64,000 nucleotides of DNA. It comes from Naegleria gruberi (lineage: Eukaryota). Shown one piece after another: positions 7,593 through 52,784 of the stretch. The stretch lies in NCBI GenBank assembly GCA_000004985.1, contig GG738855.1; one strand, written 5' to 3'. The stretch's first letter is position 1; each line of letters opens with the position of its first letter. A program made the position numbers and the translations under genes. Below the pieces are notes generated by a model. It made no database searches and was not told the DNA's origin. It saw only the letters and a program-made list of their open reading frames with translations.

Positions 7593-7801
7593 TTTTTTTG
7601 TCTTTTCTTAGGAATGAGAGAAATTGTAATTTTGATGATAATTATAACAATATTGTTCGGAAATATCGGAATATTATTGGTTACTATTTGGTTTAATAAT
7701 GAAAGAATTGTTTATTGAATCAGTAACAATTTACAAAAAGATATCTTTTTGCATCATCATTACTCTTTGAACTTTTCGAATAAAAAACAAAATACAAAAA
7801 A

Positions 7802-9208
7802 ATGAAATCGTCCACTTTAATAATATTCATATGTTCACAGGCACTGTTTCTAGCACTGTCAGCACTCACATTTCGATTATATCTATCATCAAAAAACAAT
7901 GAAAAATGTTCAATTTCTTTTTTAATATTGACAGCTCCACGTCAAATGGATGGCAATAGTTTTTATTATCTAGGACAAACAATTAATAGTATTGCTAAAT
8001 TAAAACAACGATTATTCAATCCATGTATTGTAATATTCAATAGCAAGGGAGAAGCTTTTAAAGAAGAAGTTGAATTTATGGTGAGAGGTTCAGCTCTCGA
8101 TGCACAAGTAACAATCTATCACAAGAAGAAGGAATGGGAAAGTAATAATTTTGATAATTCACAATTATCACCTCGGAAGAAACATCAATCCAATGATTTT
8201 TATGATATGATCAAGACGGTTGATTCAAACTTTAGAGTGAAGGATAATACTCCAATTGCCATCATGGAAGATGATTTTATAATGTGTGAAGGAGCTTATT
8301 ATCATTTTGGTAGGATTTTTGAAAAGATTCATGAATTGGAATCGAGTGGAAAGGATTGGGTTGGTTATCGATTCTCCTTCGGTCTGAATGGTGTGCTAAT
8401 TCAGAGAAAGGATCTTGGCAGTATGTTGAGATTTTTGGAGAGAGAATCTGAAACTGATACACCAATTGATTGGCTATTGGAACAATACTTCCATCAATTG
8501 AATCATTATGGAAAATTACGTTTCCAAGACAGATTATTCTATATTTATAGATATCAATTAATGAAACACATTGGTGTCACATCGTCTGTTGGAAATGAGA
8601 GAAATATTGAGAGAAATAATGTTGATTTTCCAAATTGTATGGAACCTCAAACACAATCTCAACTTTTAGTACTGTTCCAGGCAGAGGCATGTCCAAACTC
8701 ATACTTTTTCCCGTGTAATGATACCCTAACTGGATCCAATACACTCACCAAAAGAATTCCAAAGTCAAGTATGGCAGGAGGTATTCCATATATTGACGAT
8801 AAGGACTATGAGTTTGAACATGATACTCTTCGATTGCCTTCCTATTCATCCTCAAATCCTTTACCATTGGTTGAATTGAAGAAAGTGAGAAGTGTTCCAT
8901 GTGATGCATCAGAGAGTTGTTCAACATGTTGTGAACGATTGGGCTCAGTGTGTGAACCTCAATTCTTTTCCTATATTAATAGATGTGATGAGTTGAAACG
9001 ATATGCACCAAATTGTAAGTGCATGTATGAGAGAAATCCTGTTTTGGACTCTAGCTCACCTCTCCTTGATGGAGACTATTGCATTCTTGGTTCAAGACCA
9101 AGCAGATTCAGATGTAAAAATCAAATGGATGGCAAACGAAGATTGTGTCCATGTTTCAGGGAGAAACAAAACTCATTCGATAGGTCAAGAAAGACTTCCA
9201 ATAATTAA
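7802..9208 (+). CDS. Type II membrane glycosyltransferase, GT54 (MGAT4/GnT-IV)-like, with a Cys-rich C-terminal domain
   Basis: A single 468-aa ORF with ATG after an A-run. It has an N-terminal signal anchor (LIIFICSQALFLALSALTF), a DxD-like motif (IAIMEDDFIM), and TPIDWLLEQYF...LMKHIGVTSSVG, which resembles the MGAT4 KPIDWLLDHILW...FQHVGLHSSL block. The family assignment is from memory of the motif and is not verified. Confidence 0.55.
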   Translation: MKSSTLIIFICSQALFLALSALTFRLYLSSKNNEKCSISFLILTAPRQMDGNSFYYLGQTINSIAKLKQRLFNPCIVIFNSKGEAFKEEVEFMVRGSALDAQVTIYHKKKEWESNNFDNSQLSPRKKHQSNDFYDMIKTVDSNFRVKDNTPIAIMEDDFIMCEGAYYHFGRIFEKIHELESSGKDWVGYRFSFGLNGVLIQRKDLGSMLRFLERESETDTPIDWLLEQYFHQLNHYGKLRFQDRLFYIYRYQLMKHIGVTSSVGNERNIERNNVDFPNCMEPQTQSQLLVLFQAEACPNSYFFPCNDTLTGSNTLTKRIPKSSMAGGIPYIDDKDYEFEHDTLRLPSYSSSNPLPLVELKKVRSVPCDASESCSTCCERLGSVCEPQFFSYINRCDELKRYAPNCKCMYERNPVLDSSSPLLDGDYCILGSRPSRFRCKNQMDGKRRLCPCFREKQNSFDRSRKTSNN

Positions 9209-9333
9209 TAAATCTTGAATTTAAAGAAAATATCAAGGTGAGGAACTGATATTGTAATATTGTTTCAAGGTGTGAAGAACTCATTACGGTTATCCAAATC
9301 TTAGGAGAAAAGACAAAACGTAACGGTTTGGAA

Positions 9334-9343
9334 TTGGCGCCAA
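9334..9343. promoter_or_regulatory. Perfect palindrome TTGGCGCCAA, 151 nt upstream of the UBE2S-like ATG, with TAACGG (Myb/MSA-like core) 8 nt to its left
   Basis: Read directly as acgTAACGGtttggaaTTGGCGCCAAgaat. Confidence 0.55.
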
Positions 9344-9493
9344 GAATAAATGCTCATCAGACGTTATTTAAAATTCAAAAAAAAACTACAACACTCTTCA
9401 AAGGTCGTTTGCAGTACATCTTGACGACGACTATTAATTTTAGGAAGACTATCTTCATCTCTTCTATTTATACAATTATAATAATTTAATACA

Positions 9494-10195
9494 ATGAGTA
9501 CTTTCTTGCCACCAAATACACTCCAAAGAGTAACCAAGGAAATTTTCGACCTTCAAAAGAACAAGATTGATGGAATTGAAATTCTCACCTATGATCCTGT
9601 TAGAAATGTAGACTTGTTGAGTGATTTGAGCGAGATTTATGCTTCTATTGATGGTCCACAAGGTACTCCATTCGAAGGAGGTAAATTTACTATCAAATTG
9701 GTCTTGGATCACGAATTCCCTAATAAGCCACCAAAGGGATATTTCGTTACCAAGATTTTCCACCCAAATGTTTCTACACGTGAAGGTGAAATTTGTGTGA
9801 ATACATTGAAGAGAGATTGGAAGTCTACTCTTGGTTTCAGACATGTTCTCATGGTTATTCGTTGTTTGATGATTGAACCAAATCCTGATAGTGCTCTCAA
9901 TGCTGAAGCAGGTAGACTTATTCAAGATAACTATGAAGGTTATTCAAACAAGGCTAAGATGTTCACAGATATCTATGCCAAACAACAACAAGGTGTCACA
10001 AGTCAATCAGAACCTGAAGTGTCCAAGACCATCTCTGAAGAAACTGTTGTTGATTCCGAAAATGCTAAGGAAAATATTTGTAATGTAAATCAAACCCAAC
10101 AAAAGAAACCACTCCTCTTACTCAAAAAGCCAACTACCACCACAACCAATACTTCTACTGTTGCCAAAAAACCAGCAGGTTTGAAACGTCTGTAA
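9494..10195 (+). CDS. UBE2S: Ubiquitin-conjugating enzyme E2, UBE2S-like (APC/C K11 chain-elongating E2 family)
   Basis: A single 233-aa ORF. It contains FPNKPPKGYFVTKIFHPNVSTREGEICVNTLKRDWKSTLGFRHVLMVIRCLMIEPNPDSALNAEAGRL, which closely parallels the UBE2S UBC core (FP..PPKGYFLTKIFHPNV...GEICVNVLKRDW...HPNPESALNEEAG). It has a long C-terminal extension ending in a basic patch (KKPLLLLKKP...AKKPAGLKRL). Confidence 0.88.
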   Translation: MSTFLPPNTLQRVTKEIFDLQKNKIDGIEILTYDPVRNVDLLSDLSEIYASIDGPQGTPFEGGKFTIKLVLDHEFPNKPPKGYFVTKIFHPNVSTREGEICVNTLKRDWKSTLGFRHVLMVIRCLMIEPNPDSALNAEAGRLIQDNYEGYSNKAKMFTDIYAKQQQGVTSQSEPEVSKTISEETVVDSENAKENICNVNQTQQKKPLLLLKKPTTTTTNTSTVAKKPAGLKRL

Positions 10196-10312
10196 ATGAA
10201 ATCTTGTGTAAGGATGTCATTCTAAGAAGATCTAGGCAATAAATAATATTATTTAACAACATAATAGGATATTAGAGAAACAAATTTCACTAATTACATT
10301 TTACAGTTTTAT

Positions 10313-12706
10313 TTAAGGAGCTAGTGCTTTAGCAGAAGTATTCACAATACCAGCAAACAAGTATTCCCCACCATCTTGTTCTTCCTTCATTAAATCCCTT
10401 AAGAAAAGAACAGTTTGCTTTTCAGTATTTTCAATTGATCTATCAATTTCAGCCTCTAATTGATTTCCTTCATATACTGCAGAGGTTTGTTTTCCTTCCA
10501 AAACCCAACTTTCAAATTGGAGAGCCTTAGCATGAGCAATTTCCTTTGTTGGAGCCAAAATACGATAGGCACGCTTGTATAAACTCTTTCTCTTATCTTC
10601 AGAAAGATTCTCGAAAACTTCAACCAAAATATCGTGAAGCAAGAAAGGTAAATCAAAGTTATAGTCTCGTCTGGCAACTTTTTCACAATAATCGAAAATC
10701 TTTTCCTTCTCTATTAATGATTTGGTAATTTCTTCCGTGGCAGTATCCTTATTCATTCTATGAATAATGTAGCTACCATGAATGGATCTGAGTTGAGCCC
10801 AAATCTTGAATTTGTTTTCAAAACAGTCTTCATTTCTTGAAAGAATAATTACAATATTTTCAAGGTATGATTCGAATTGTTCCTCTCTATTGAGTGCATG
10901 ATTTGAGTGTTCCCTCATTTGAGTAACAGCAAATCTCAACAAGTGGAGAGCTTCATTAATAATAACTTCCTTGAAGTTGAAGAAATGTACAGATAATTGA
11001 TTCCAAATTTGAGGGTGATTTTCCTTGATATTAGTTTCAAATGTCAATACATGAGTAATTGACATTAATAAATTATCCCAAACTTGAGCAAATTCGTCCC
11101 AACCAGAGTTTTCACTTTCTTCGCTCAAAAATCCCTTAATGAAAGAAAGTTGAAGTTTGCAAAGTTCAGAACATGCTTGAATTTCGACCTTATCCTTGAG
11201 AAGTTGAAGCATGGCAGATGATGGTTGATCACCAACACTTGGAATTTCATCAGAGAACATTCCAATGCTTTGACCAATACCTGTACCAATGTCAAGCAAT
11301 CTCTTGATTGTCTTTAATCTTGATGGAATATCTAGTGCATTATTTTGAGCTTCTTCACTTTCTTCTTCTTGTTCAGGTTGTTTCTCTCGTTGTTTAACAA
11401 GGAGCATCTTTCTTAAAAAGATTGACCATTCATAGGAAAGTACTACAGAATCTAATACAATTTGTTGACTGGTGAATTTAGGATGCAAAGACTTTTCAGC
11501 AGCAGGTAAGCTGTTCAATTGTCTAGCAGTAAGAAAAGTCAAATCTTCGTAACAAGAATCAGCTGATTTCCATTCATTTGCCATTGTGTACAAATATCCA
11601 AGTTTGAGCAATGATGTCTTGAGTTCGAACAAGTTTAGGCTATCAGATGCAAAGTTAATAGATGCAGGATTCTCTTTTGGAAGAAGCTTTTTAAGGTGAT
11701 CAGCTGAACTCTTAAAATCTTGCACTCTTTCGAATAGAATTGAAAGTCTCTTATCCAAATCTCTAATGTACTGTTCAGTAGATGCTATATGTTTGATAAC
11801 GTCTTGAGTTGAGGAAATGTTTTTAAGAATATTTAGAACCTCTTCCAATTTTTGGTATACAGCAATGAGAGTATTTACAGCATTTCTCAATTGTCCTTCA
11901 CGTTCATAAACAGCTGAGAGTTGGAAATATGTACCAAAAATGCTCATCACAAGATTTTCATTTCTTTTTTGCTCCAAGAAGGATTCTACAACAATTCTGG
12001 TTGCGAATGATGATGCATCATATTGGAAGAAGAGTAATTTTTGAAGAATAATCTTGCTCAATGATGTACATTGAAGAATATTGTAAATTCCGTTCATCTC
12101 GTTCAAATATTTGATAATTTCCTCTTTAGCTTTTTTAACAGTTTCAACATTTTCAGGAAGATGAGAAAGGTCTGTCTTTCTCTTTATCAATGATTGCAAC
12201 TTGCTTGTGGAAAAGCTCAATTTTGATAAATCTGCCAATTTACTATCATCCTTCTTTGACAATTCATGTTCCTTCAAGTATTGTGATGCTACTTGGAGTG
12301 CAATAAGTTGTGGATATATATCTTCGGCATCAGGTCTATCGGCCATATATTGTTTAGAAACATAAACAATACCGTCTATTGTTTTGGTGAGTGTCTCTGT
12401 GAGCGCTTTCTTATCATCTGTAGCATTCTTCCAGCTATAGAGTTGAATAATAAGAGTTTGTAAATGAGTTTGAGTCCACTTTGCTACAGTTTCATCATTT
12501 AAATCGGAAATATGATATTCATTTGCTTGACCAAGGTTTGTATCATAATGATAGGAATTAAAACAAGTGCCAGTTAAAGATGTTGTTGTTTTCAAACAAT
12601 TAATACTATTATGCTTAATTGATGATGATCTATTGTTGGTAACCAATAACGAAGATGAAGAAAGAGTCTTTGGCCTGAAAACCCTTTTCACGATGTGATT
12701 TTTCAT
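10313..12706 (-). CDS. Hypothetical all-helical protein of 797 aa with an S/T/basic N-terminus (possible organellar presequence)
   Basis: A single uninterrupted ORF with ATG at 12706 after an A-run. I recognise no family motif. Confidence 0.65.
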   Translation of the reverse strand: MKNHIVKRVFRPKTLSSSSLLVTNNRSSSIKHNSINCLKTTTSLTGTCFNSYHYDTNLGQANEYHISDLNDETVAKWTQTHLQTLIIQLYSWKNATDDKKALTETLTKTIDGIVYVSKQYMADRPDAEDIYPQLIALQVASQYLKEHELSKKDDSKLADLSKLSFSTSKLQSLIKRKTDLSHLPENVETVKKAKEEIIKYLNEMNGIYNILQCTSLSKIILQKLLFFQYDASSFATRIVVESFLEQKRNENLVMSIFGTYFQLSAVYEREGQLRNAVNTLIAVYQKLEEVLNILKNISSTQDVIKHIASTEQYIRDLDKRLSILFERVQDFKSSADHLKKLLPKENPASINFASDSLNLFELKTSLLKLGYLYTMANEWKSADSCYEDLTFLTARQLNSLPAAEKSLHPKFTSQQIVLDSVVLSYEWSIFLRKMLLVKQREKQPEQEEESEEAQNNALDIPSRLKTIKRLLDIGTGIGQSIGMFSDEIPSVGDQPSSAMLQLLKDKVEIQACSELCKLQLSFIKGFLSEESENSGWDEFAQVWDNLLMSITHVLTFETNIKENHPQIWNQLSVHFFNFKEVIINEALHLLRFAVTQMREHSNHALNREEQFESYLENIVIILSRNEDCFENKFKIWAQLRSIHGSYIIHRMNKDTATEEITKSLIEKEKIFDYCEKVARRDYNFDLPFLLHDILVEVFENLSEDKRKSLYKRAYRILAPTKEIAHAKALQFESWVLEGKQTSAVYEGNQLEAEIDRSIENTEKQTVLFLRDLMKEEQDGGEYLFAGIVNTSAKALAP

Positions 12707-12931
12707 TTTTTTTAAAATTTATTTTTATTCCTTTCCGAACTTTAATTTCCAGTTTGATTGTTGTTCTTATCCGTATTGCATGATTTTGAAAAGAGGGTAG
12801 ATGAAATTTAATGCCACATGTGGCTTACTCTGCTTTACAATGAGAAGAGATGATGATATTTAATGTAGGTGAAACACAAAGCTGTTTTAGTAGATAGGAA
12901 TAGCATTCACCACTTGTTGGAATCAAAAGTT

Positions 12932-12939
12932 TTTGCCGC
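12932..12939. promoter_or_regulatory. TTTGCCGC, matching the E2F consensus TTTSSCGC, 40 nt upstream of the Myb/SANT gene ATG
   Basis: Read directly as aagtTTTTGCCGCCttttttt. It is a single 8-mer match, so chance occurrence is not excluded. Confidence 0.3.
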
Positions 12940-12978
12940 CTTTTTTTAAATATCAAACGAATTGAAAATCAAAACAAA

Positions 12979-14121
12979 ATGGAAAGTGGTCTCTCTTTAA
13001 ACCTTGTAGATTTCAATTCCTTGGTTGTTTCCTCGACAAATAGTGTTGGAGACTCTGCAGTGAATACGAGGAGAATGTTGGCAAAATCGTGGACTTCACT
13101 CCTGTTGGGTGGTGATGAAGGAGAAGACGAAGTCTATTCGTCATCGCCTCCGACCATTCATCACCATCTGCAAAATACTCATTTAAATTCGGATCCTAAT
13201 GATTTAGTTGTTTTGCATGATTTTAATGACAATTCAAGTATTATTACAGATGTCATCAGTAATGTTGATAATGGCAGTAGCAATCACGTGATTGATTCAG
13301 CAGTAATTCAAAAAGAACGATTAATCAAAAAACAATTGGAATGTAAAAAATTGAGAATGCTCTTCTCACCTCCAGAAATGCTAACAGAGGATGGTGAAAT
13401 TGAAGAGTCTTACTTTAGACCAGATCCTTCCAGAATTTTTAATATGGATTGTCTGAAAACACTGACCTGGAATAAGACAGACGAAGAATTGTTGAGAAGA
13501 GGTATTAATGAGTTTGGAAATGATTGGACAGCCATAATTTTGAAATACCTTCCGAATTGGGACGCAAAAGAACTGCAAGAAAAGTGTAAACAATTGAAAA
13601 TCTCAACAAAAAAGGCTCGCACAACTCCTGAACCAAAAATCAATACTAGTGGTAAACTATCCACTTCTTCATCAACAAAGAGGAAGAAAAAAACAAAGAA
13701 AAAACCAGAAAGTGAAGACAAAGAATTTGAAGAAAATGAAACAGATGAAGAATCATTTGAAATTATTTCAGAAGAGGAGAAGAAGCCAAAGAGAAAAACA
13801 TCTAATAAGAAGAATGCCACAACCACTGTAAAATCTAAAACAATATCTAAAACCAATAAGAAATCTAACAGCAAACAAAATGGAAAATCAACCACTAAAA
13901 AGGTGGCTGTAACCAATTCTGAAACTTCTGAAGAGGAGGAAGAATTCAATGAAGATGATTTTATTTCAGAAGAAGAAGAGGAGGATGAAATGAGTGATGA
14001 AGAACCTCCAAAAAGTAGCAAAAGAGGTGGCAGAGCTAGGCCAAAGAGGCAAGTACAAAGGTATTGCTATCATGAAAATTCATCTGGTGAAGATGAAATG
14101 CTCGACCAGTACATTGATTAA
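12979..14121 (+). CDS. Myb/SANT-like DNA-binding domain protein with a K/E/S-rich tail
   Basis: A single 380-aa ORF. It carries one Myb-like repeat, TWNKTDEELLRRGINEFGNDWTAIILKYLPNWDAKELQEKCKQL, followed by lysine/glutamate-rich low complexity. Confidence 0.75.
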   Translation: MESGLSLNLVDFNSLVVSSTNSVGDSAVNTRRMLAKSWTSLLLGGDEGEDEVYSSSPPTIHHHLQNTHLNSDPNDLVVLHDFNDNSSIITDVISNVDNGSSNHVIDSAVIQKERLIKKQLECKKLRMLFSPPEMLTEDGEIEESYFRPDPSRIFNMDCLKTLTWNKTDEELLRRGINEFGNDWTAIILKYLPNWDAKELQEKCKQLKISTKKARTTPEPKINTSGKLSTSSSTKRKKKTKKKPESEDKEFEENETDEESFEIISEEEKKPKRKTSNKKNATTTVKSKTISKTNKKSNSKQNGKSTTKKVAVTNSETSEEEEEFNEDDFISEEEEEDEMSDEEPPKSSKRGGRARPKRQVQRYCYHENSSGEDEMLDQYID

Positions 14122-14141
14122 TGTATCAACACTCTAAAAAA

Positions 14142-15116
14142 ATGTCACCTCATGAATTGCTAGAAGATTATCAATTTTGGATAGAAAAATTAGTGATTGC
14201 ATATTGGATACTCGGAAGTGTCTTGTATTGTCTCCGATTTTTCAACAATTTTTTCCATTCATCATTTCAATATGGAAGATTTTCATCAACGAGTACGGAT
14301 AACTCTCCTCACACCAATCAACCAAGGAATGAATTTCTTGACAAAATTTCACACTTTATTATGAAACCTATTGTGACGGAAAGTTTTCATTGGAGAAGCA
14401 TATACTCAGTCGGATTGGTTGTGAATACTTTTGGAATTTATGTGTTTCACTCTGTGAATGGATTAGAGTGGTCAACAATTTTGATTCTTGTACTGTATGA
14501 AGCTCATCTCCTCAAGAGATGCATTGAAGTCTATTGGTTACAACCATGGGTCAATCCTCCAAGATTTGTTGGATCATTTCTATTCTTGAGTGGTGTTTCG
14601 TATTATGTCATCTCTCCAATTACATTCTTATTGGGATGCCTTAAGCGTACAGATTTGCAGAGGTATCCGCTGAATATTTTAGGAGCTTTCTTCTTTATCT
14701 ATTGCTGGTATGTAATTTGTTAAATATTTAATCACAATTAATTATTTGAATGGTCACTAGCTATCACCAATACCAATGTCACAAGATTCTCTATTCGCTT
14801 GCAAGAGAAAAAAACAAGAATCCAAGCATTGGGTATCAGATTCCAAATGGTGACTTATTTGATTTGTTATATTGTCCACATTACTCAACAGAAATCGGAA
14901 TGTACCTTTCACTCAATATTATCCTATGTTTTTCATACATTCCCTCAATGTAAGTTAATACTCCTTAGAAAATCATCTTAGAGTAATAGATTGTGTTTTG
15001 CATTCACTTCACTTAACCTTGGTTATCACTCAATTGAAACATATCGTTGGTATCAAACAAAATTCCCAAAGAAACTCCCATCTAAGCGCAAAGTACTCAT
15101 TCCTTACCTTTTCTAA
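14142..15116 (+). CDS. Polyprenol reductase / steroid 5-alpha-reductase family membrane protein (SRD5A3/DFG10-like)
   Basis: Model: join(14142..14707,14761..14949,14990..15116). The introns are 53 nt (GTATGT..CTAG) and 40 nt (GTAAGT..ATAG). The joined C-terminus reads YHQYQCHKILYSLAREK..YQIPNGDLFDLLYCPHYSTEIGMY...HSIETYRWYQTKFPKKLPSKRKVLIPYLF, the 3-oxo-5-alpha-steroid 4-dehydrogenase C-terminal pattern. The ORF opens at 14121 (ATG overlapping the upstream stop as TAATG), but the ATG at 14142 has the typical A-run context. Confidence 0.78.
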
Positions 15117-15372
15117 AAAAGGGGAATTTTCTTTGGCCAAACCGTTTGTTATAATGCTGTCTGACTCTGAGCAAATAAACAAACCGGCATTCCACCTCTT
15201 CTATAAGTTATTATTCTTATAAAAAAATTCACCATCCAACCGCTCGCTTACACTGTCGCCTCAATAGACTGCACAAAAACATTAAGCAGCAAACGTAAAC
15301 ATTAAAATTGGATTTTGATAACAATAATAACAATAATAATAATACATCCTATTCAGCTGCTCGACAGGAATT

Positions 15373-17631
15373 ATGTTCCGTCCCTCATCCTTCATAAGAT
15401 CAACAGGATCTCGACAACCCTTGGGAGATTTTTCATCTTCTTCTAATAACTCGACACCAAACACCCCTCCTCCACCTACATCCACTAATGAAACTAATAG
15501 TAATAATAATATTGGAAAATCATTTTTGAGAGGTTCTTCATTTGTTGGAGGATTTACTCAGTCCTTCAACCTTCCTATTAAGAGAACAACAGAAGTAGTG
15601 GAAACAGATAACAATGTCCGAAGAAATAGCGAGGCCACACAACGTCTTCCTTCACCCTCAATAGCAGAAACCATTGAAGTTGATAAAAACCTAGTATCCA
15701 GCATCAAATCATGGGCATTTGAGGGTTCAATTAAGTTACCAGAATGTTTGAATCCAAATTTTAAACCTAAAATACAACCAGAAGAAGAATCAGAAATGAA
15801 AAGATCGGAAAGTGTAGTAATTGATGAAAAAAAGTCTTTTAATGAGCTTTTCGACTCTTTATTCTCATCATCTTCCTTAGAGGAAACAGCAGGAGAAAAA
15901 TCTCCCTCAACAACAGATGATTCTGATGTTGCCTCTCCCCCTAATACACCACCTTCATCAACTAATAGTGTAGGAACACCTCCAAAGGGAGGTTTAAAAT
16001 CTCTTTTATTCGGAAAAAAGTATAAACCAACAACAACAGCAACAGTAAGCAATATTCCTCTGGTTAAGGAAACACCTAAGCCTCTAAATCCATATAGAAT
16101 TGCCCATGTTCCTCTTCGAGATGACCAATTTGGCAGAACAGGGTTTAAATTGGAATTAACAGATTTTCAAATTATAGAAACTTTCAGAGATGTATCTAGA
16201 TATAATAGAAAAAAAGATATTGACGAGCAACGAAGAATGAGAAACCAACTGATGGAAAATTCAAAAAACCAAAATAATGATACTTCAGATTCTGTTCTGG
16301 AAAGAGAGTATGAATACTCGTGCTATAGTTCCCAATCTGATTCCCCTGTTGTGGATAAGAATTCAGAGGAAATATTGAGAAGGAAAAAGTTTATAGAGAA
16401 GGAAATAATGGAAACAGAGATTGGATATGTGAGAAATCTTGTACATTTATTTGAGTATTATTTATTGCCAATTAGGAAAGTTGGTATTCTATCAAAAGAA
16501 AACTATCAGATAGTATTCAAAAACATTAATATGATTCTAGCAATTAATACTACATTGCTTACAGAATTCGAAAAAGCATACTATTCACTAAAACCAAAAG
16601 AGTCGATTGCGTCGATATTCAGTTCTAGAATTCCAGCAATTAAGCTCTATGTAGGATATGTAAATAGTTACCCGAGTGCAATCAAGTGTTTGAATGAAAT
16701 CTTGTCAAAAGATAATAATTTTGATTCATGGGAGAAATCTCAACGAAATACTAAAGTGAACGGAGTTCATTTGTTTCCACTGAGGAGTTTTATTGCGTTA
16801 CCTCTGCAAAGAATTACTAAGTACTACCTCTTATTCAATGATTTGTTGGAAACATTGGATGGTGATGACTATTACTCTCTTAGCGCAGTTATTGATGAAA
16901 TGAAATCCCTGTCCGCTTATTGTATCGAGAAGAAGAATGAATCAGATAATTTGGAAACTCTGTTAGAGTTCCAGAAAAAGCTGAAACTAAAAGAACTGGT
17001 AAGAGGAGATAGAACCTTCCTTAGGGAAGGAGTTGGAAGTGTAGATAATGGTGACACCATAGTTGAGTTATATCTATTCTCAGACCTTTTAGTTTATGTC
17101 ATGTCAAATGAATCGAAACGAGTAGTTAAGGAGGTACCTCTCAAAGCTGGTAATCTTATTGAACTAACCAAAATCTCATCCACAACTGTGATGCTTTCCT
17201 TTCAGAATGAAAAGAGTTATATCACATTTGATTCTGAAGAAGAGCAAAAAGTGTGGTCATCTGCAATCAATGAACAACTCAATTCCAGCTTAACAAAGGC
17301 AAGAATAAGAAGAAGAGGAAATTCAAGCACTCCACTAGAGGAAAAGATTATTTTTGCAGGCTACCTCACAAAATCCAAAGGCTTGAGCAAGAAAACTAGA
17401 TTCCATACATTATCTTCCATGGGAGGTGTAAAATACTATGACAAGCCCAATGGTGACATGAAAGGTTCCTATCAAATCAAGGGAAGTAAGATATTCAAAA
17501 AATCACCTACAACTTTCTTACTCACTGATAGTGATGGTAAATCCTTTTACTATAGCACAGAAAACGACAGTATTGCCTCAACTTGGATCAATCGATTCAT
17601 TGGTTTGGGAGCAGTCATTATGAAACAATAA
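15373..17631 (+). CDS. Rho guanine-nucleotide exchange factor (DH domain, PH-like region, and a second C-terminal PH domain)
   Basis: A single 752-aa ORF. DH-domain hallmarks are RRKKFIEKEIMETEIGYVRNLVHLFEYYLLPI and LPLQRITKYYLLFNDLLE. The C-terminal segment IFAGYLTKSKGLSKKTRFHTLSS..VKYYD is PH-like. Confidence 0.85.
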   Translation: MFRPSSFIRSTGSRQPLGDFSSSSNNSTPNTPPPPTSTNETNSNNNIGKSFLRGSSFVGGFTQSFNLPIKRTTEVVETDNNVRRNSEATQRLPSPSIAETIEVDKNLVSSIKSWAFEGSIKLPECLNPNFKPKIQPEEESEMKRSESVVIDEKKSFNELFDSLFSSSSLEETAGEKSPSTTDDSDVASPPNTPPSSTNSVGTPPKGGLKSLLFGKKYKPTTTATVSNIPLVKETPKPLNPYRIAHVPLRDDQFGRTGFKLELTDFQIIETFRDVSRYNRKKDIDEQRRMRNQLMENSKNQNNDTSDSVLEREYEYSCYSSQSDSPVVDKNSEEILRRKKFIEKEIMETEIGYVRNLVHLFEYYLLPIRKVGILSKENYQIVFKNINMILAINTTLLTEFEKAYYSLKPKESIASIFSSRIPAIKLYVGYVNSYPSAIKCLNEILSKDNNFDSWEKSQRNTKVNGVHLFPLRSFIALPLQRITKYYLLFNDLLETLDGDDYYSLSAVIDEMKSLSAYCIEKKNESDNLETLLEFQKKLKLKELVRGDRTFLREGVGSVDNGDTIVELYLFSDLLVYVMSNESKRVVKEVPLKAGNLIELTKISSTTVMLSFQNEKSYITFDSEEEQKVWSSAINEQLNSSLTKARIRRRGNSSTPLEEKIIFAGYLTKSKGLSKKTRFHTLSSMGGVKYYDKPNGDMKGSYQIKGSKIFKKSPTTFLLTDSDGKSFYYSTENDSIASTWINRFIGLGAVIMKQ

Positions 17632-17670
17632 ACTTGTTCAACAATTTATTGGTAAAATCCAATCAAAAAA

Positions 17671-19938
17671 ATGCTTCAAAAATCAACAAGAAGAATTTCA
17701 TCACTTTATGCTGGTTGTGGTCGTATTTCATCAACACCATCATCATCGGGAGTTGTACTCAACACTAATAGTTCAATCAAAATAATTAACCATCAATACA
17801 GATGTTATAATAATCATTTGGCAAAATTAAATCGTCTATCGGAATTATCAAATAATAACAAGAAACAATTTAAAAATCATCGTGATAGACAATATCAACC
17901 AATGGATAACATTGAAACACCAAAGGAAGTAAAGAATGATGTAACTACAGAATCCTATACTAAAATATTGAAAAAGTTCTTCTTAAAGGTTCACCCTGAC
18001 TTTTTCCAACAAGATCCACCAAAACAACAACAAAACAAGGAGTCCTTCTCAAAATTGAACGAACTTTTAAATTGGACTAACGAATATACCCAATTAACAC
18101 TTGATAATAAGAATTTGAATGAAGAGGAAATAGCTGACCTGGAAAAGAGATTGAATAGACTTGGTCCTATTCCAAGCGTTGATGAATCATTTGTTTTCTA
18201 TGTTAAGGAAACTGGAAGACAAAAATCTGAACCATTTAGAATTGAAGTTTTGTTTTCTTTACCAAAGAAGGTTCAATTCAATGGAAAATTAAAGAGTAGA
18301 TTGATTTTAACTCAACGTTTGGAAGAATTAGTAACTTCACTTTTGGAAAAATCAAAAATCATAACTGCTGAGGAAGCTAAAGCAAGAAGAGACATTGCTT
18401 TGGAACAATACAGAGAAATGGAAGAGTCCGTGGGTTCAAAGGGTAAGAAGACCTATAAATCACTGAAAGAAGAGTTACGTATGGCTCTCCAAAATAATTT
18501 ACAAGGAGCAGTCAACCTTGAAAAATTAAGAAGAGGTGAAGAAGATGATGAAGAATGGTGGTGGGATAAAGACTTGCCATCCATTGAACACTTGGTTACA
18601 CACGGCATGCTCTTCTTCTCTAAGAATATTACAGCAGAACAAACCATCAAAGCTATGAATCAATTGAAGAATGGTCTTGGTGAGATGAGATATTATGAAT
18701 GGAGTGATATTCCATTAATGATTACAGAAAAAACTGGCAAGTATGCTGTAAATGATCCTGTTGATGGGTTCATTTGCATTCCTTATGACTTTACTCCATT
18801 CGATTTTGTCAAGGAAATCATTACCAACGAAAAGAACATGACACTCCTCGTTGAAAAACGTGAATTGACAAGAAAAAAGGCCGAAGCTATTCAAAACATT
18901 AGAGAAAAACTTATTGAAGAAGTTGGTTTCTCTGATTTAACCATTTCACCAGAATTGACCTCAGAAGAACTCTATACATTTATTGAAAACTTTGAAAAGA
19001 GATACTTAAGTAATGACAAGATGAAATTGTTACTGAAAGACCTCTGTATCATCATTGATAACAAGTATTCAGCAAGTCCAGATGGATACATTTCAATTCA
19101 TTGGAACTTTATGCACAATGGAAAGGACAATATGTTCGAATTTTTGAAAGATTTAGGAGCTCAAAAAATCAAGAATATCAAAGATATGGGAAGAACTCTC
19201 AGCAATCTTAAGAGAGCATGTGTTTCACTCGGTGAAGAACTCATTGATAAACTTAAATGTAAAGAACTCAATTTGACAACCTATGCCGATTTGAACGAAT
19301 CCAATATGAAACGGTATCAAACTCTCCCAGTTACCCACGAATATATGAAACGATTGAGAGAATGTTGCCTCTTCTTGGAACGTTATGATTGGAGCACACA
19401 TACTTTCTATTTGGTCAATACTTTGGATTTACCTAAAGGTTTCAAACTTCCACTCAAACAAGTTCCTCATGTCAAGACAGAGGCCGATGTTAAGAGTTTA
19501 ATGAGAAGAATGACAATATATGGTGATACTATCATTGATATGGGCGCCAGAGCAGTCTATATTCCTGTAAACTTTACTGAAAATCAATTGTTCGAAACAG
19601 TCAACAAATATTGGAAGATGATTGAAAAACCTCAATTGCAATTGGATGGTGATGATTTTACAGATGTTGTAGATCCTCAAGGATTCCAACAATATAGAAA
19701 TTTGGCCTCTGAACTCGTCAAACAAGCTGAGTTTATGCTGACAAAGAAGAGAGCAGAAAGATATCAACAATTGGCTGAATTCCTCAACAGTCTTGAAGAT
19801 CAACAATTGTATGGTAAGGGTGCCAATAGTATTATGGAAGCAGCACTAGATAGACAAGAAGATGAAAGATATATCAATCTGTATCGTACTTGGTTCAGAA
19901 TTAGAGATATTCCATTAGATGTTTTTGAAACTCAATAA
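17671..19938 (+). CDS. TCAIM-like mitochondrial protein (DUF4460/DUF4461-type)
   Basis: A single 755-aa ORF with a basic, S-rich N-terminus. FFLKVHPDFFQQDPPKQQQNKESFSKLNELLNW resembles the signature FAVHPDFF..HP.E...NE.SLK.LN block of TCAIM/C3orf23. The family call is from memory. Confidence 0.55.
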   Translation: MLQKSTRRISSLYAGCGRISSTPSSSGVVLNTNSSIKIINHQYRCYNNHLAKLNRLSELSNNNKKQFKNHRDRQYQPMDNIETPKEVKNDVTTESYTKILKKFFLKVHPDFFQQDPPKQQQNKESFSKLNELLNWTNEYTQLTLDNKNLNEEEIADLEKRLNRLGPIPSVDESFVFYVKETGRQKSEPFRIEVLFSLPKKVQFNGKLKSRLILTQRLEELVTSLLEKSKIITAEEAKARRDIALEQYREMEESVGSKGKKTYKSLKEELRMALQNNLQGAVNLEKLRRGEEDDEEWWWDKDLPSIEHLVTHGMLFFSKNITAEQTIKAMNQLKNGLGEMRYYEWSDIPLMITEKTGKYAVNDPVDGFICIPYDFTPFDFVKEIITNEKNMTLLVEKRELTRKKAEAIQNIREKLIEEVGFSDLTISPELTSEELYTFIENFEKRYLSNDKMKLLLKDLCIIIDNKYSASPDGYISIHWNFMHNGKDNMFEFLKDLGAQKIKNIKDMGRTLSNLKRACVSLGEELIDKLKCKELNLTTYADLNESNMKRYQTLPVTHEYMKRLRECCLFLERYDWSTHTFYLVNTLDLPKGFKLPLKQVPHVKTEADVKSLMRRMTIYGDTIIDMGARAVYIPVNFTENQLFETVNKYWKMIEKPQLQLDGDDFTDVVDPQGFQQYRNLASELVKQAEFMLTKKRAERYQQLAEFLNSLEDQQLYGKGANSIMEAALDRQEDERYINLYRTWFRIRDIPLDVFETQ

Positions 19939-19944
19939 ATATAT

Positions 19945-22182
19945 TTATTTCACCAAGTCCAAATAGTTTCCAGAATTATTATCAATATACTTGACCGAAC
20001 AAGACAAACAAGGAAGCAAAATTAAGGGAAGAGGAAGCAAAAACAATGTGGCAAACCCAAAAGAGTACTGTTCTGGATAAGCAATGATAATGGCATGATG
20101 AACGAATAAACAAATCAGACTACACAGTACGGTAATGTACATGTTAATGTACAAACAACGTTTGGTTTTCGAATAGAGAGCTCTACACTCCAAGCAACAC
20201 CACAAAAAGGCAATAAATATCGTTCCAGCAAACAAGAGAAACTCTACTACAAATAGTGGAATCATAGCCACTGCCCAATCAATCTCTGACTCAATAGAAA
20301 ATTGATGAGTAATCATGATTGAACACAGCATACTATAACAAAATGCCACTATTAAAATGATAGAGTTGCAAGTAGAAGTGAGCTTGGAAATCACTGTTCT
20401 GAATTTGATACTTCTCACAATCAACCAAATAAAACAATAAATCAGCATGATTGTCGAAAGTCCACCAAAAACGGCAAACAAATACCATGGAGATTGACTG
20501 AATTGAGAATGAGGCAGACACAAGTACAAATTCCACACAAGTGCAAAAACAATTCCACAAATAGATAAGAGTAACAATCCAATACATGACATGACACTAT
20601 CAAAAAACATCTTCCTCAAACTCAAGATATTCCTCTGTTTTTCCCTTCTCTTACTGTTATTCCTGAGCGCAATTCCAAGTTTCCTCGCTGAAAGTCTCAA
20701 CTCTATTATGGACGATACGAGAATATTAATCATTCCACAATAGAGTGGAAAGAATACCACAATCCAACTCCACTCATTCTCATAATCAATACCAACATTC
20801 ATCAACACTCCCTTAATGGAGAATCCCAATATGAAACATGTGAAAAAGATGTAAACCAAGGGTGCAGAAAATACAAAGTGAATAGAAGATAGCCCCTCAA
20901 TGTCATCCAAAATGAGTTGCTCTGATAGTGGAATAGTTGTGAAACGATCTGATTTTTTCTTTTCAATCTTTCTAAATATGTCAATTCCAAATTGTTTGAC
21001 TTTCTTTTCAGTTTTCAAACATTCACAATAACAATCCTTCTCGAAAATAATATCATTCACTCCCTCAATTGTTACCGATTTGTACTTTTTAAACATAGAT
21101 GGAGGTATCTGAACAGTTGATTCCTCGCTATCACAATCTGATTCATTAATTAGTGTCAATATTTCCATTTCTTCCTCTTCAGAAACATATTCTTCTGAGG
21201 TAAGAGTTTCTGATAATTGATGATCAATCAGAGCAGTTTGGCTAGCACCACTATTATTCGAAAACTCATCCATTTCAATTGAAATTACCTCCTGATGGTT
21301 TCTCTCACCACGTGGAGATTCAATATCCTCAATAAATTCCATAATTTTTGGTGGTGAAAAACATGAATTTTCTATTTTACAAACTCCTCCCAAGTCCAAT
21401 AGAGAAGGTTTCGTATTCACCTTCTTTCCATTCGACATTAAATAATTTAAATGATATTGACCTAAATTTCCACCCTTCTTCCTATTGAAAAAGTAATTCT
21501 TAACTGCCAATATTCTTCTCTTTACAACTTTTTCCTGCACATAAATATCAAAATCCTTAAAGTATAATAATTTCAATTCTCGTATCTTGATTTGATATAA
21601 TCTATTCCAAAAACGTTGTTCTCTATCCAGAAAATTGTACCACATTGAACAAGTATGTGATAAATTGACCATTGTCAAAGAATCATCCAAAAACTCTGAA
21701 ATAATCATCAAAATATCATTTGCAATAATATTCTCAAAATTATGCCATTCAACAGGTTTCAATCGTTGATTATTATTACGATGACGATGATGATGATGAT
21801 TTGCACCATCCAATATAATTGTTCCTTCCTCCTCCGAATCATCATTTCTATTTTCCATTATTATTGTTGTGGTGGTGTTGTGATTGTTGTTGTTATATGA
21901 AGAACTGAGGGCGTGAAAAATTCTGGCAATTGGTGATTTGGTATTGGTTCGTTGTTGATTGTTTATAATGGGAGAAGGTGGCTGGTCAGTTTGGATTGTG
22001 ATATGTTCTTCATCAACATCATGTCTTTCCATCAATAATTGATTACGAGATTGACTAACATGAGTAGTGACAGGTATTGGTGAGTCATCTTCGGAGAGGA
22101 GAGATTCAGAGTTTGCAAAACCAATTTCCGAAGTTTGAATTTGATGGTTGGATTTATTGGTGGATGATCGTTTTCTAGTCAT
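19945..22182 (-). CDS. F-box-like domain fused to a C-terminal polytopic (about 8-10 TM) membrane domain
   Basis: A single 745-aa ORF with ATG at 22182 after an A-run. The F-box-like segment is NDILMIISEFLDDSLTMVNLSHTCSMWYNFLDREQRFWNRLY. The C-terminal 330 aa consist of successive hydrophobic helices. It is paralogous to 35012..37813. Confidence 0.75.
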   Translation of the reverse strand: MTRKRSSTNKSNHQIQTSEIGFANSESLLSEDDSPIPVTTHVSQSRNQLLMERHDVDEEHITIQTDQPPSPIINNQQRTNTKSPIARIFHALSSSYNNNNHNTTTTIIMENRNDDSEEEGTIILDGANHHHHRHRNNNQRLKPVEWHNFENIIANDILMIISEFLDDSLTMVNLSHTCSMWYNFLDREQRFWNRLYQIKIRELKLLYFKDFDIYVQEKVVKRRILAVKNYFFNRKKGGNLGQYHLNYLMSNGKKVNTKPSLLDLGGVCKIENSCFSPPKIMEFIEDIESPRGERNHQEVISIEMDEFSNNSGASQTALIDHQLSETLTSEEYVSEEEEMEILTLINESDCDSEESTVQIPPSMFKKYKSVTIEGVNDIIFEKDCYCECLKTEKKVKQFGIDIFRKIEKKKSDRFTTIPLSEQLILDDIEGLSSIHFVFSAPLVYIFFTCFILGFSIKGVLMNVGIDYENEWSWIVVFFPLYCGMINILVSSIIELRLSARKLGIALRNNSKRREKQRNILSLRKMFFDSVMSCIGLLLLSICGIVFALVWNLYLCLPHSQFSQSPWYLFAVFGGLSTIMLIYCFIWLIVRSIKFRTVISKLTSTCNSIILIVAFCYSMLCSIMITHQFSIESEIDWAVAMIPLFVVEFLLFAGTIFIAFLWCCLECRALYSKTKRCLYINMYITVLCSLICLFVHHAIIIAYPEQYSFGFATLFLLPLPLILLPCLSCSVKYIDNNSGNYLDLVK

Positions 22183-43282: not shown

Positions 43283-43972
43283 ATGTTTGGTGAAGGAAGA
43301 AAAGAAAAAATGTCATCAAGCAACAACACTCATTCATCATCATCTTCCCTTCTCTTGGATATTGAAGACAATTTGAACAAAAAGAAAGAAAATTCAAATC
43401 CTATTAGTAAACCATCCTTTCTCAAATTATCACAGCAACAAGATGGCACAAATGAAGGAATGCCTAGATTTGCTCCTTCCGAGCTCTTGTCCAGACTACA
43501 AAGCTTTTTACCACAAATTAAAGAAGCAAACGAAAAGCTAGAAAGTGGTGAAGTTGAAGGCTTTTCGGATTGTGTTGAAATTATTGAGAATGATGATGAG
43601 GAGGAACAAGATGGTGCTCAACTTCAAGAGGAAAATTATAATGATGAAGAAGAATCCGAACATAAACCCTATGTGGAGATGAATGTAGTATTGGGAGTAT
43701 TAGAACAAAAACAAAAAACAAGCCTAATTACAGATATAGATGGACCAACAGAGGATGAACAAAAATTGGAAGAAAAAGATGAAGTTGTAAATTTGAGAAT
43801 TGGAAAGGATTTTACTCCACAAGAAAGCAAAAATATTGAACAGGATATGGTGGCATATATGAATATTATGAATTCTCTTCTCGGTTCTTCATCAGCATTG
43901 AAAAGAAAACGAGTAGAGGACAACAGTGATAGTGGCAGTAGTGGTGATAGTAGTGACAGTGATCAAGATTAG
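43283..43972 (+). CDS. NOPCHAP1 (C12orf45/DUF4598)-like acidic protein
   Basis: A single ORF, with an in-frame second ATG at 43310 in an A-run context. ELLSRLQSFLPQIKEANEKLE and YVEMNVVLGVLEQK parallel LLERVKQFLPQMAQANEKLQ and VIQMDVALFEMNQ of human C12orf45, as I recall it. Confidence 0.55.
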   Translation: MFGEGRKEKMSSSNNTHSSSSSLLLDIEDNLNKKKENSNPISKPSFLKLSQQQDGTNEGMPRFAPSELLSRLQSFLPQIKEANEKLESGEVEGFSDCVEIIENDDEEEQDGAQLQEENYNDEEESEHKPYVEMNVVLGVLEQKQKTSLITDIDGPTEDEQKLEEKDEVVNLRIGKDFTPQESKNIEQDMVAYMNIMNSLLGSSSALKRKRVEDNSDSGSSGDSSDSDQD

Positions 43973-45408: not shown

Positions 45409-45465
45409 TTTTTCTTTCAATTTTAATATTAAATAATTTATGATGAATACGAAATTATTAAAAAA

Positions 45466-52757: not shown

Positions 52758-52784
52758 TTTTTTAAATTAATTTTAAATTATTAA

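What the first reader, a model, noticed from the sequence alone, without database searches (positions are those of the whole stretch)
14119..14144. Same-strand neighbours with a TAATG stop/start overlap, or a 20-nt spacer
The Myb/SANT gene ends GAT TAA at 14119-14121. The reductase ORF opens with an ATG that shares the final A (TAATG, 14121). The better-context ATG (aaaaaaATG) is only 20 nt downstream, at 14142. No room exists for a terminator plus a promoter. Either the downstream promoter and 5' end lie inside the upstream coding region, or the two genes are co-transcribed as a dicistron with reinitiation or processing.
Basis: partly seen in the sequence, partly recalled or inferred. Interest (0 to 1): 0.5.

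Follow-up and report, generated by a model that had tools for sequence, protein, structure and literature searches.

The report
Two abutting genes in compact Naegleria genome
In the amoeba Naegleria gruberi a Myb-like gene stops only 20 bases before the start of a steroid-reductase-family gene; this looks like an extreme case of this genome's usual tight packing with tiny untranslated regions, not an operon, although the pair has stayed together across the three related genomes compared.

Summary
The Myb/SANT-like ORF ends GAT TAA at 14116-14121. An ATG shares the last A (14121-14123). An aaaaaaATG lies 20 nt downstream (14142). The window is Naegleria gruberi.

The TAATG overlap is chance: 7.4% of all TAA triplets in the window are followed by TG, and three orthologous loci lack the overlap. 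The likely start is 14142. A5-ATG opens an ORF of at least 100 codons at 19 of 27 sites, against 13% for all ATGs.

The Myb-to-reductase adjacency is kept in N. lovaniensis, N. fowleri and Willaertia magna, with spacers of 61, 88 and 13 nt. All other neighbours differ. The window holds two more tandem junctions of 27 and 39 nt, and stop codons of convergent genes lie 1-15 nt apart.

Published direct-RNA data for N. gruberi give a median 3' UTR of 39 nt, or 22 nt where the stop codon overlaps AAUAAA.

Best reading: two separate mRNAs whose ends abut or overlap, with the reductase promoter overlapping the 3' end of the Myb coding region. No signature of trans-splicing, termination-reinitiation or leaky scanning was found. 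Transcript ends were not observable here. It is an ordinary feature of a known kind, at the extreme of the range.

The parts
12979..14121 (+). Myb/SANT-like gene, a single exon of 380 codons. It is N. gruberi NAEGRDRAFT_47217 / XP_002679951.1 / D2V775.
   Evidence: ORF. A 100% identical protein named [Naegleria gruberi]. Myb profile hits. Orthologues lie upstream of the reductase in three other genomes.
14117..14122 (+). ATTAAT hexamer overlapping the TAA stop (14119-14121). It is a candidate degenerate 'dual-use' stop/poly(A) signal. This is inferred, not shown.
   Evidence: All four orthologues end GAT TAA, giving ATTAAT (N. gruberi, N. fowleri), ATTAAA (W. magna) or ATTAAC (N. lovaniensis). 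None has AATAAA from -40 to +150 of the stop. Dual-use stops with a median 22-nt 3' UTR are documented for N. gruberi (PMC11529991).
14121..14123 (+). ATG overlapping the stop (TAATG). It is in frame with ATG 14142, seven codons upstream, in a poor context (ttgattaATG). It is probably not the normal start.
   Evidence: It is not conserved in the orthologous loci.
14122..14141 (+). The 20-nt spacer tgtatcaacactctaaaaaa. It contains UGUA (14122-14125) and a six-A run (14136-14141), and has no AG dinucleotide.
   Evidence: UGUA is reported as an upstream auxiliary poly(A) element in N. gruberi (PMC11529991).
14142..14707 (+). Reductase exon 1, starting at the aaaaaaATG that is the likely initiation codon.
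   Evidence: A5-ATG opens an ORF of at least 100 codons at 19 of 27 sites, against 321 of 2455 for all ATGs. W. magna has the same aaaaaaATG context. Splice model.
14708..14760 (+). Reductase intron 1 (53 nt, GTATGT...TAG, phase 2).
   Evidence: N. fowleri has an intron at the same position: P0004 reads into it, and the tblastn alignment breaks there.
14761..14949 (+). Reductase exon 2, carrying the Steroid_dh core (GYQIPNGDLF...YCPHY..E).
14950..14989 (+). Reductase intron 2 (40 nt, GTAAGT...TAG).
   Evidence: The tblastn alignments break at the same residue (about 252) in all three orthologous loci.
14990..15116 (+). Reductase exon 3, ending ...RKVLIPYLF TAA.
   Evidence: C-terminus conserved in four species.

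Best explanation
These are two separate protein-coding genes of Naegleria gruberi, each most likely making its own mRNA, packed so tightly that the transcript ends abut or overlap. Shown: the Myb-like ORF stops at 14121. The reductase ORF has an aaaaaaATG at 14142, a context typical of gene starts in this genome. The same gene order with a very short spacer (13-88 nt) is kept in three other heterolobosean genomes while the surrounding genes differ. Inferred: translation of the reductase starts at 14142. The Myb mRNA is cleaved and polyadenylated within or a few tens of nucleotides past the 20-nt spacer, possibly directed by the AUUAAU hexamer overlapping the stop and the UGUA just after it. 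The reductase mRNA has a very short 5' UTR, starting in the spacer or in the last codons of Myb. Its core promoter therefore overlaps the 3' coding end of Myb. This overlap of functional elements makes any breakpoint between the genes harmful, which would explain why the pair has stayed together. The TAATG overlap is a coincidence.
For: 1. Identity and anatomy.
2. Start codon: A5-ATG marks ORFs of at least 100 codons at 19 of 27 sites, against 13% for any ATG. In two other genes (starts 41890 and 43310) an in-frame ATG also lies 7-9 codons upstream. W. magna has aaaaaaATG at its reductase start.
3. Very short junctions recur in the window. Tandem junctions of 39 nt (17631 to 17671) and 27 nt (52785 to 52757, minus strand) both have AATAAA overlapping the upstream stop and an A-run ATG. 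Five convergent pairs have stops 15 nt or less apart, or overlapping. One divergent pair has 57 nt between its ATGs.
4. Published direct-RNA sequencing of N. gruberi gives AAUAAA as the signal, a median 3' UTR of 39 nt, 11-13% of stops overlapping AAUAAA with a median 22-nt UTR, and UGUA enriched upstream (PMC11529991).
5. Conserved adjacency: the Myb-like orthologue lies directly upstream on the same strand in N. lovaniensis (61 nt), N. fowleri (88 nt) and W. magna (13 nt). No other window neighbour is shared. The control pair RhoGEF to DUF4460 is not conserved.
6. In N. lovaniensis and N. fowleri only the 25 nt next to the reductase ATG are conserved (GAAAAAATATTGAAAsATGATGA). The rest of each spacer carries three ATGs (shown out of frame for those traced). 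This suggests the 5' end lies close to the ATG.
7. Heterolobosea show about 2 genes per same-strand run and no polycistronic signature (bioRxiv 10.64898/2026.07.29.740908).
Against: No transcript data for this locus could be reached, so both mRNA ends are inferred. The stop-overlapping hexamer in N. gruberi is AUUAAU, not a documented signal, and no AAUAAA or AUUAAA lies within 150 nt downstream. The site of Myb 3' end formation is therefore unknown. I found no published 5' UTR lengths for N. gruberi. k-mer enrichment upstream of 29 window starts gave no promoter motif. Synonymous sites in the last 14-27 codons of Myb are more conserved between N. lovaniensis and N. fowleri (0.93 against 0.77 gene-wide), but the test is post hoc and underpowered. 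Conserved adjacency is equally expected for a dicistronic unit. No N. gruberi product of the reductase turned up in the protein collection, so its expression is unconfirmed.
Confidence: 0.68

Rival explanations
1. Conserved dicistronic unit. Myb and the reductase are transcribed from the Myb promoter as one RNA. The reductase is then translated by reinitiation, or after processing of the precursor.
For: A spacer of 0-20 nt leaves no room for conventional signals. The adjacency and the very short spacer are kept in four genomes while the flanks are rearranged. No canonical poly(A) hexamer lies near the Myb stop. Polycistronic mRNAs are now documented in other eukaryotes with compact genomes (PMC11761812; PMC11291117). 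Heterolobosea are relatives of the Euglenozoa, which are polycistronic.
Against: The spacers of N. gruberi and W. magna have no AG, so no trans-splice acceptor fits between the cistrons. 29 ATGs lie between the Myb start and 14141, and the Myb start has an A-rich context, so leaky scanning is excluded. Reinitiation after a 380-codon ORF is not expected without a special element, and none was seen (no UGGGA; junction RNA fold z = 0.08). The ATGs in the N. lovaniensis and N. fowleri spacers would intercept reinitiating ribosomes. Heterolobosean genomes show no polycistronic architecture. Cleavage without trans-splicing would leave an uncapped downstream RNA (established knowledge).
Confidence: 0.1
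2. UAAUG-coupled termination-reinitiation, as in influenza B M1/BM2 or calicivirus VP1/VP2. The ribosome terminating at TAA 14119-14121 restarts at the overlapping ATG 14121.
For: The pentanucleotide TAATG is present, and the ATG is in frame with the reductase ORF with no intervening stop.
Against: 7.4% of all TAA triplets in the window are followed by TG. The orthologous junctions have 13, 61 and 88 nt between stop and start and no overlap. No UGGGA (TURBS motif 1) lies in 13900-14121. The context of this ATG is poor compared with the A-run typical of starts in this genome.
Confidence: 0.02
3. Separate mRNAs, but the reductase TSS lies well inside Myb. Translation then begins at the first ATG met, 14121, giving a protein seven residues longer.
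For: ATG 14121 is in frame with no stop before 14142. The N-terminal tails of the four orthologues are unconserved in length and sequence, so homology cannot tell the two starts apart.
Against: If the 5' UTR reached further upstream it would also include ATGs at 14072, 14093 and 14098. The A-run context strongly favours 14142. Two other window genes show the same pattern of a poor-context in-frame ATG 7-9 codons upstream of an A-run ATG.
Confidence: 0.15
4. The reductase ORF is a silent or decaying gene in N. gruberi, so the missing promoter space means nothing.
For: No N. gruberi product of this gene appears in the protein collection.
Against: The three-exon ORF is intact, with GT-AG introns at positions shared with the orthologues. 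It is 46-53% identical to them, with all family-invariant residues kept. The neighbouring DUF4460 and RhoGEF genes are also missing from the collection. This points to annotation gaps rather than gene decay.
Confidence: 0.03

Closest known systems
[quoted passage not shown] 2005 PNAS, PMC1182411; Corradi et al. 2008; both as cited in PMC3629993)
   Same: Intergenic spacers are shorter than the UTRs. Transcripts start in upstream genes or end in downstream genes. Each gene is still translated from its own message. Tightly packed neighbours tend to stay linked.
   Different: N. gruberi is a free-living amoeba with a roughly 41-Mb, intron-containing genome, not a reduced parasite or endosymbiont genome. 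Transcript overlap at this locus is inferred here, not observed.
Ultrashort 3' UTRs and 'dual-use' stop codon/poly(A) signals in protists, including N. gruberi itself (Genome Res 2024, PMC11529991)
   Same: The organism is the same. Two other very short tandem junctions in this window have AATAAA overlapping the stop (17627-17632, and about 52784-52789 on the minus strand). The 20-nt spacer matches the published 22-nt median UTR of dual-use sites.
   Different: At this junction the hexamer is AUUAAU (AUUAAA only in W. magna), so whether it works as a signal is unknown.
SL trans-spliced operons of nematodes, tunicates and kinetoplastids
   Same: Same-strand neighbours with very little intercistronic space, and conserved gene order.
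   Different: The spacer has no AG acceptor. I know of no spliced leader reported for Naegleria (own knowledge). Heterolobosean genomes lack same-strand clustering.
Bicistronic mRNAs of green algae translated by leaky scanning (PMC11291117), and polycistronic transcripts of Cryptosporidium parvum (PMC11761812)
   Same: Nuclear genes in compact or streamlined genomes with two ORFs very close on one strand.
   Different: The algal ORF1s have weak Kozak contexts and few ATGs before ORF2. Here the Myb start sits in the favoured A-rich context, and 29 ATGs precede the reductase start.
Viral termination-reinitiation at UAAUG (influenza B M1/BM2; calicivirus TURBS). Named from my own knowledge.
   Same: The literal TAATG stop/start overlap.
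   Different: There is no UGGGA motif, the overlap is not conserved in orthologues, and a better-context ATG lies 21 nt downstream.

Membership tests
Overlapping/abutting monocistronic units of compact genomes | Spacer shorter than the organism's typical UTRs | tested here: met
   The spacer is 20 nt. The published N. gruberi median 3' UTR is 39 nt (PMC11529991).
Overlapping/abutting monocistronic units of compact genomes | Recurrent across the genome, not a one-off | tested here: met
   The window has tandem junctions of 20, 27 and 39 nt, five convergent pairs with stops 15 nt or less apart, and one divergent pair with 57 nt between ATGs.
Overlapping/abutting monocistronic units of compact genomes | Transcripts observed to start in the upstream gene or end in the downstream gene | not testable with these tools
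   No N. gruberi transcript data were reachable.
Overlapping/abutting monocistronic units of compact genomes | Adjacency retained in evolution more than that of neighbouring junctions | tested here: met
   The Myb-to-reductase junction is kept in 3 of 3 genomes. The four flanking and control junctions are kept in 0 of 2-3 genomes. The sample is small.
Dual-use stop codon / poly(A) signal | AAUAAA or AUUAAA overlapping the stop codon | tested here: inconclusive
   The hexamers are AUUAAU (N. gruberi, N. fowleri), AUUAAA (W. magna) and AUUAAC (N. lovaniensis).
Dual-use stop codon / poly(A) signal | Cleavage about 20 nt after the stop | not testable with these tools
   This needs 3'-end reads.
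SL trans-spliced operon | 3' splice acceptor (AG) between the cistrons | tested here: not met
   There is no AG in the 20-nt N. gruberi spacer or the 13-nt W. magna spacer.
SL trans-spliced operon | Genome organised in long same-strand gene runs | tested here: inconclusive
   Same-strand runs in the window range from 1 to about 9 ORFs. The literature gives about 2 genes per directon for Heterolobosea, with no heavy tail.
SL trans-spliced operon | Spliced-leader RNA present in the organism | not tested
   No SL search was made.
Termination-reinitiation (TURBS / UAAUG) | Stop and restart codons overlap or lie within a few nt | tested here: met
   TAATG at 14119-14123.
Termination-reinitiation (TURBS / UAAUG) | Upstream UGGGA motif complementary to 18S rRNA | tested here: not met
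   No TGGGA in 13900-14121.
Termination-reinitiation (TURBS / UAAUG) | Arrangement conserved in orthologues | tested here: not met
   The spacers are 13, 61 and 88 nt with no overlap.
Leaky-scanning bicistronic mRNA (green-algal type) | Weak start context on ORF1 | tested here: not met
   The Myb start is caaaacaaaATG, the A-rich type favoured in this genome.
Leaky-scanning bicistronic mRNA (green-algal type) | Depletion of AUGs before ORF2 | tested here: not met
   29 ATG triplets lie between 12979 and 14141.
Steroid 5-alpha-reductase / polyprenol reductase family (downstream gene) | Steroid_dh domain above the Pfam gathering score | tested here: met
   PF02544 at 70.7 bits against a cut-off of 22.6. 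PDB 7c83 at E=3e-8.
Myb/SANT domain proteins (upstream gene) | Myb_DNA-binding domain above the Pfam gathering score | tested here: inconclusive
   The single sequence scores 22.1 bits, below the 24.4 cut-off. A four-species profile hits MYB21 at E=4e-6, plus TBF1 and c-Myb.

The most novel reading that the evidence does not exclude
The Myb-like gene and the reductase form an evolutionarily conserved dicistronic transcription unit in Heterolobosea. That would be a nuclear bicistronic mRNA, or a co-transcribed and processed precursor, in a lineage related to the Euglenozoa, the group where polycistronic transcription became universal. It would be a possible living intermediate in the origin of that system.
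Probability: 0.08. Interest if true: 0.7.

Novelty: new member of a known kind. Interest (0 to 1): 0.25.

Why it matters
If the reading is right, the junction is a clear example of how far a free-living eukaryote can compress gene boundaries. A stop codon, a 3'-end signal, a 5' UTR and a core promoter share about 20-40 nt. That sharing can lock two functionally unrelated genes together across the divergence of Naegleria and Willaertia. In practice the locus flags a probable gap in the N. gruberi annotation, since no product of the reductase gene was found in the protein collection. It also supplies a usable start-codon rule for the species (A-run before ATG). Finally, it points to a short DNA fragment that could be tested as a minimal promoter or terminator in the existing N. 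gruberi transfection system (PMC7200600). It does not change current understanding unless long reads show a true dicistron.

Tried and rejected
1. Exact-product look-ups of three window ORFs found no N. gruberi contig with gene calls. No N. gruberi annotation or transcript contigs were available.
It is a 40%-identical SRD5A3-like gene with different intron style and no Myb neighbour, so it was discarded.
3. An ENA metagenome contig (L006) is a near-identical N. gruberi strain but covers only 7750-10370 of the window. It is genomic DNA, not a transcript.
4. 6-mer enrichment in the region -60 to -7 upstream of 29 start codons gave no motif with at least 4 occurrences.
5. A test for suppressed synonymous change at the Myb 3' end compared N. 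lovaniensis with N. fowleri. The last block scored 0.93 against 0.77 overall. The result is suggestive but post hoc and underpowered.
6. An Rfam scan of 12500-15500 found nothing credible (one chance hit, E=0.59).
7. Folding of 14040-14200 was no better than shuffles (z=0.08).
8. An N-terminal alignment of the four reductases cannot discriminate the two ATGs.
9. Literature searches found no report of Naegleria polycistrons and none of 5' UTR lengths or TSS maps.
10. A fusion by frameshift or readthrough was rejected. The ORFs are in different frames, and both proteins are complete and separately conserved.
Full report
**What is there.** The window is Naegleria gruberi. The upstream ORF (12979-14121, 380 codons) is 100% identical to 'predicted protein [Naegleria gruberi]', NAEGRDRAFT_47217 / XP_002679951.1 / D2V775. 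The genome is AT-rich, about 34% GC, with very short GT-AG introns.

The junction reads TGATTAATGTATCAACACTCTAAAAAAATGTC for 14115-14146.
- GAT is 14116-14118 and TAA is 14119-14121.
- One ATG shares the last A of the stop (14121-14123).
- A second, in-frame ATG follows six A's at 14142-14144.
- The spacer is 20 nt.

The upstream protein is Myb/SANT-like. Pfam PF00249 scores just under its gathering cut-off. A four-species profile hits MYB21, TBF1 and c-Myb.

The downstream gene belongs to the steroid 5-alpha-reductase / polyprenol-reductase family (PF02544, E=1.7e-19; PDB 7c83, 7bw1). It has three exons, 14142-14707, 14761-14949 and 14990-15116, separated by introns of 53 and 40 nt.

**Which ATG.** I listed every A5-ATG in the window on both strands.
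- 19 of 27 open an ORF of at least 100 codons, against 321 of 2455 (13%) for all ATGs.
- About half of the clearly real genes start with aaaaaaATG, so this context marks starts in this genome. ATG 14142 has it. ATG 14121 (ttgattaATG) does not.
- Two other genes (A-run starts at 41890 and 43310) also have a poor-context in-frame ATG 7-9 codons upstream, so the configuration is commonplace.
- The W. magna orthologue also starts at aaaaaaATG.
- The N-terminal tails of the four orthologues are not conserved, so homology cannot decide between the two ATGs.
- TAATG is no more than chance, because 7.4% of all TAA triplets here are followed by TG.

**Related loci.** The reductase has orthologues of 46-50% identity in N. 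lovaniensis, N. fowleri and Willaertia magna. In all three genomes the gene directly upstream on the same strand is the orthologue of the Myb-like gene.
- The four share the core KLRMLFSPPEMLTEDGxIDESYFRPNPS...EFGNDWTAIILKYLPNWDAKEL.
- They share a C-terminal tail ending in Asp-stop; the RPKRxVQR part of that tail is present in the three Naegleria only.
- The stop-to-ATG spacers are 61 nt (N. lovaniensis) and 13 nt (W. magna).
- For N. fowleri the spacer is 88 nt, using the longer N-terminus seen in P0004 and in the DNA.
- The conserved C-terminus up to the last residue rules out a missed intron that would move the Myb stop.

No other gene within 8 kb is shared with the window. As a control I took the next very short tandem pair in the window, RhoGEF to DUF4460 (39 nt). 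Its adjacency is not kept in N. fowleri or W. magna.

The Myb-to-reductase junction is therefore specifically retained. In each sampled locus it is the shortest tandem junction. Other tandem gaps are 86-279 nt in the two Naegleria loci and 32-259 nt in W. magna.

**The genomic background.** The window shows that near-zero spacers are normal in N. gruberi.
- Two more tandem junctions measure 39 nt (17631 to 17671) and 27 nt (52785 to 52757, minus strand). Both have AATAAA overlapping the upstream stop and an A-run ATG.
- Convergent gene pairs have stops 1, 4, 6 or 15 nt apart, or overlapping by 4 nt.
- One divergent pair has only 57 nt between its two ATGs.

Published nanopore direct-RNA sequencing of N. 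gruberi (PMC11529991) reports several relevant facts.
- AAUAAA is the poly(A) signal.
- The median 3' UTR is 39 nt.
- 11-13% of stop codons overlap AAUAAA ('dual-use' stops), with a median 22-nt UTR.
- UGUA is enriched upstream of the signal, and U-rich sequence downstream.

A 20-nt spacer is thus the extreme of a known regime, not a different phenomenon.

**How it most likely works.**

Shown:
- two intact, separately conserved ORFs;
- a start context typical of real starts at 14142;
- conserved, very close adjacency.

Inferred:
- The Myb mRNA ends in or just beyond the spacer. All four orthologues end GAT TAA, which gives AUUAA[U/A/C] over the stop. This is canonical AUUAAA only in W. magna. 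In N. gruberi UGUA follows at once. None has AAUAAA within 150 nt.
- The reductase mRNA has a very short leader. Between N. lovaniensis and N. fowleri only the 25 nt next to the ATG are conserved (GAAAAAATATTGAAAsATGATGA). The rest of each spacer holds three ATGs, out of frame where traced, that would spoil a longer leader.
- The reductase core promoter must therefore overlap the last codons of Myb.
- A breakpoint between the genes would damage one of them, which would explain the retained linkage.

A weak hint of extra synonymous conservation appears in the last Myb codons of N. lovaniensis against N. fowleri (0.93 against 0.77). It is post hoc and underpowered.

**Why not a dicistron.**
- The spacers of N. 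gruberi and W. magna contain no AG, so no trans-splice acceptor can lie between the ORFs.
- 29 ATGs lie between the Myb start and 14141, and the Myb start has a strong context. The leaky-scanning mechanism documented in green algae (PMC11291117) therefore cannot apply.
- No UGGGA lies upstream, and the junction has no stable structure (z=0.08).
- The stop/start overlap is absent from all orthologues.
- A comparative study of Discoba finds about 2 genes per same-strand run in Heterolobosea, with no polycistronic signature.

None of this is transcript evidence, so I keep about 10% for co-transcription.

**Comparison with what is known.** The closest analogue is the overlapping or abutting transcription described for microsporidia and nucleomorphs (Williams et al. 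2005 and Corradi et al. 2008, as cited in PMC3629993). The ultrashort UTRs and dual-use stops described for N. gruberi itself also match. The junction differs from these in three ways: it lies in a free-living, non-reduced genome, the hexamer is non-canonical, and the overlap is inferred rather than observed. It fails the tested defining features of SL operons, TURBS-type reinitiation and leaky-scanning bicistrons.

**Verdict.** This is a new member of a known kind, of modest interest. The conserved linkage is the only feature beyond the ordinary.

Noticed in passing
window 14142-15116: No N. gruberi product of the reductase gene appears in the protein collection. The homology search returned only N. 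lovaniensis, N. fowleri, W. magna and one N. fowleri-like fragment. Four exact variants of the protein were absent. The gene is probably unannotated in the reference gene set, perhaps because it abuts NAEGRDRAFT_47217.
   Followed up: partly
window 15373-17631 and 17671-19938: The exact products of the RhoGEF/PH ORF (752 aa) and the DUF4460/DUF4461 ORF (755 aa) are also absent from the collection. The DUF4460 homology search returned no N. gruberi protein. These may be further annotation gaps or different gene models.
   Followed up: partly
window 17627-17673: A second very short tandem junction. The RhoGEF stop TAA (17629-17631) lies inside AATAAA (17627-17632). A 39-nt spacer follows, then aaaaaaATG of the DUF4460 gene at 17671. 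This adjacency is not conserved in N. fowleri or W. magna.
   Followed up: yes
window 52755-52800 (minus strand): A third very short tandem junction. A 160-aa coiled-coil ORF ends CAATAAAT, so AATAAA overlaps the stop. A 27-nt spacer follows, then aaaaaaATG of a GCV_H-like ORF at 52757. Whether the upstream ORF is a real gene was not established.
   Followed up: partly
window 3117/3119, 19938/19945, 30029/30045, 43969-43972, 61637/61642: The stop codons of convergent gene pairs lie 1, 6, 15 and 4 nt apart, or overlap by 4 nt. At 19936-19947 the two stops form the palindrome TAAATATATTTA. The 3' UTRs must run antisense into the neighbouring coding region.
   Followed up: no
window 45408-45466: A divergent gene pair has only 57 nt between its two ATGs, both in A-run context. 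Two promoters and two 5' UTRs therefore fit in 57 nt or overlap the coding regions.
   Followed up: no
whole window; e.g. 413, 434, 7656, 12733, 24632, 24680: The heptamer TTCCGAA occurs 18 times on the two strands, against 6.1 expected (0 of 100 shuffles reach 18). Several copies lie just upstream of, or just inside, gene 5' ends. It may be a transcription-factor site.
   Followed up: partly
window 41890 (minus strand) and 43310 (plus strand): Two other genes have an A-run ATG 7-9 codons downstream of the first in-frame ATG. Their true starts are probably the A-run ATGs.
   Followed up: no
L001 7975-8007 and L002 7876-7908: N. lovaniensis and N. fowleri share a perfectly conserved block, GAAAAAATATTGAAA[C/G]ATGATGA, directly upstream of and including the reductase start. 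The rest of the spacer has diverged and differs in length. The block is a candidate minimal leader or initiator.
   Followed up: partly
L006 (ENA ERZ929261 metagenome contig), corresponding to window ~7750-10370: An environmental metagenome contig is about 98% identical to the window. It encodes the same Glyco_transf_18 and UBC proteins, so it is an N. gruberi-like strain. In the 285-nt intergenic region the differences cluster about 70-110 nt upstream of the UBC ATG. The 65 nt next to the ATG and most of the stretch after the stop are unchanged.
   Followed up: no
window 14950-14989: The second reductase intron is only 40 nt. Its position is shared by all four species. The W. magna gene model likewise implies a single intron of about 41 nt.
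   Followed up: partly
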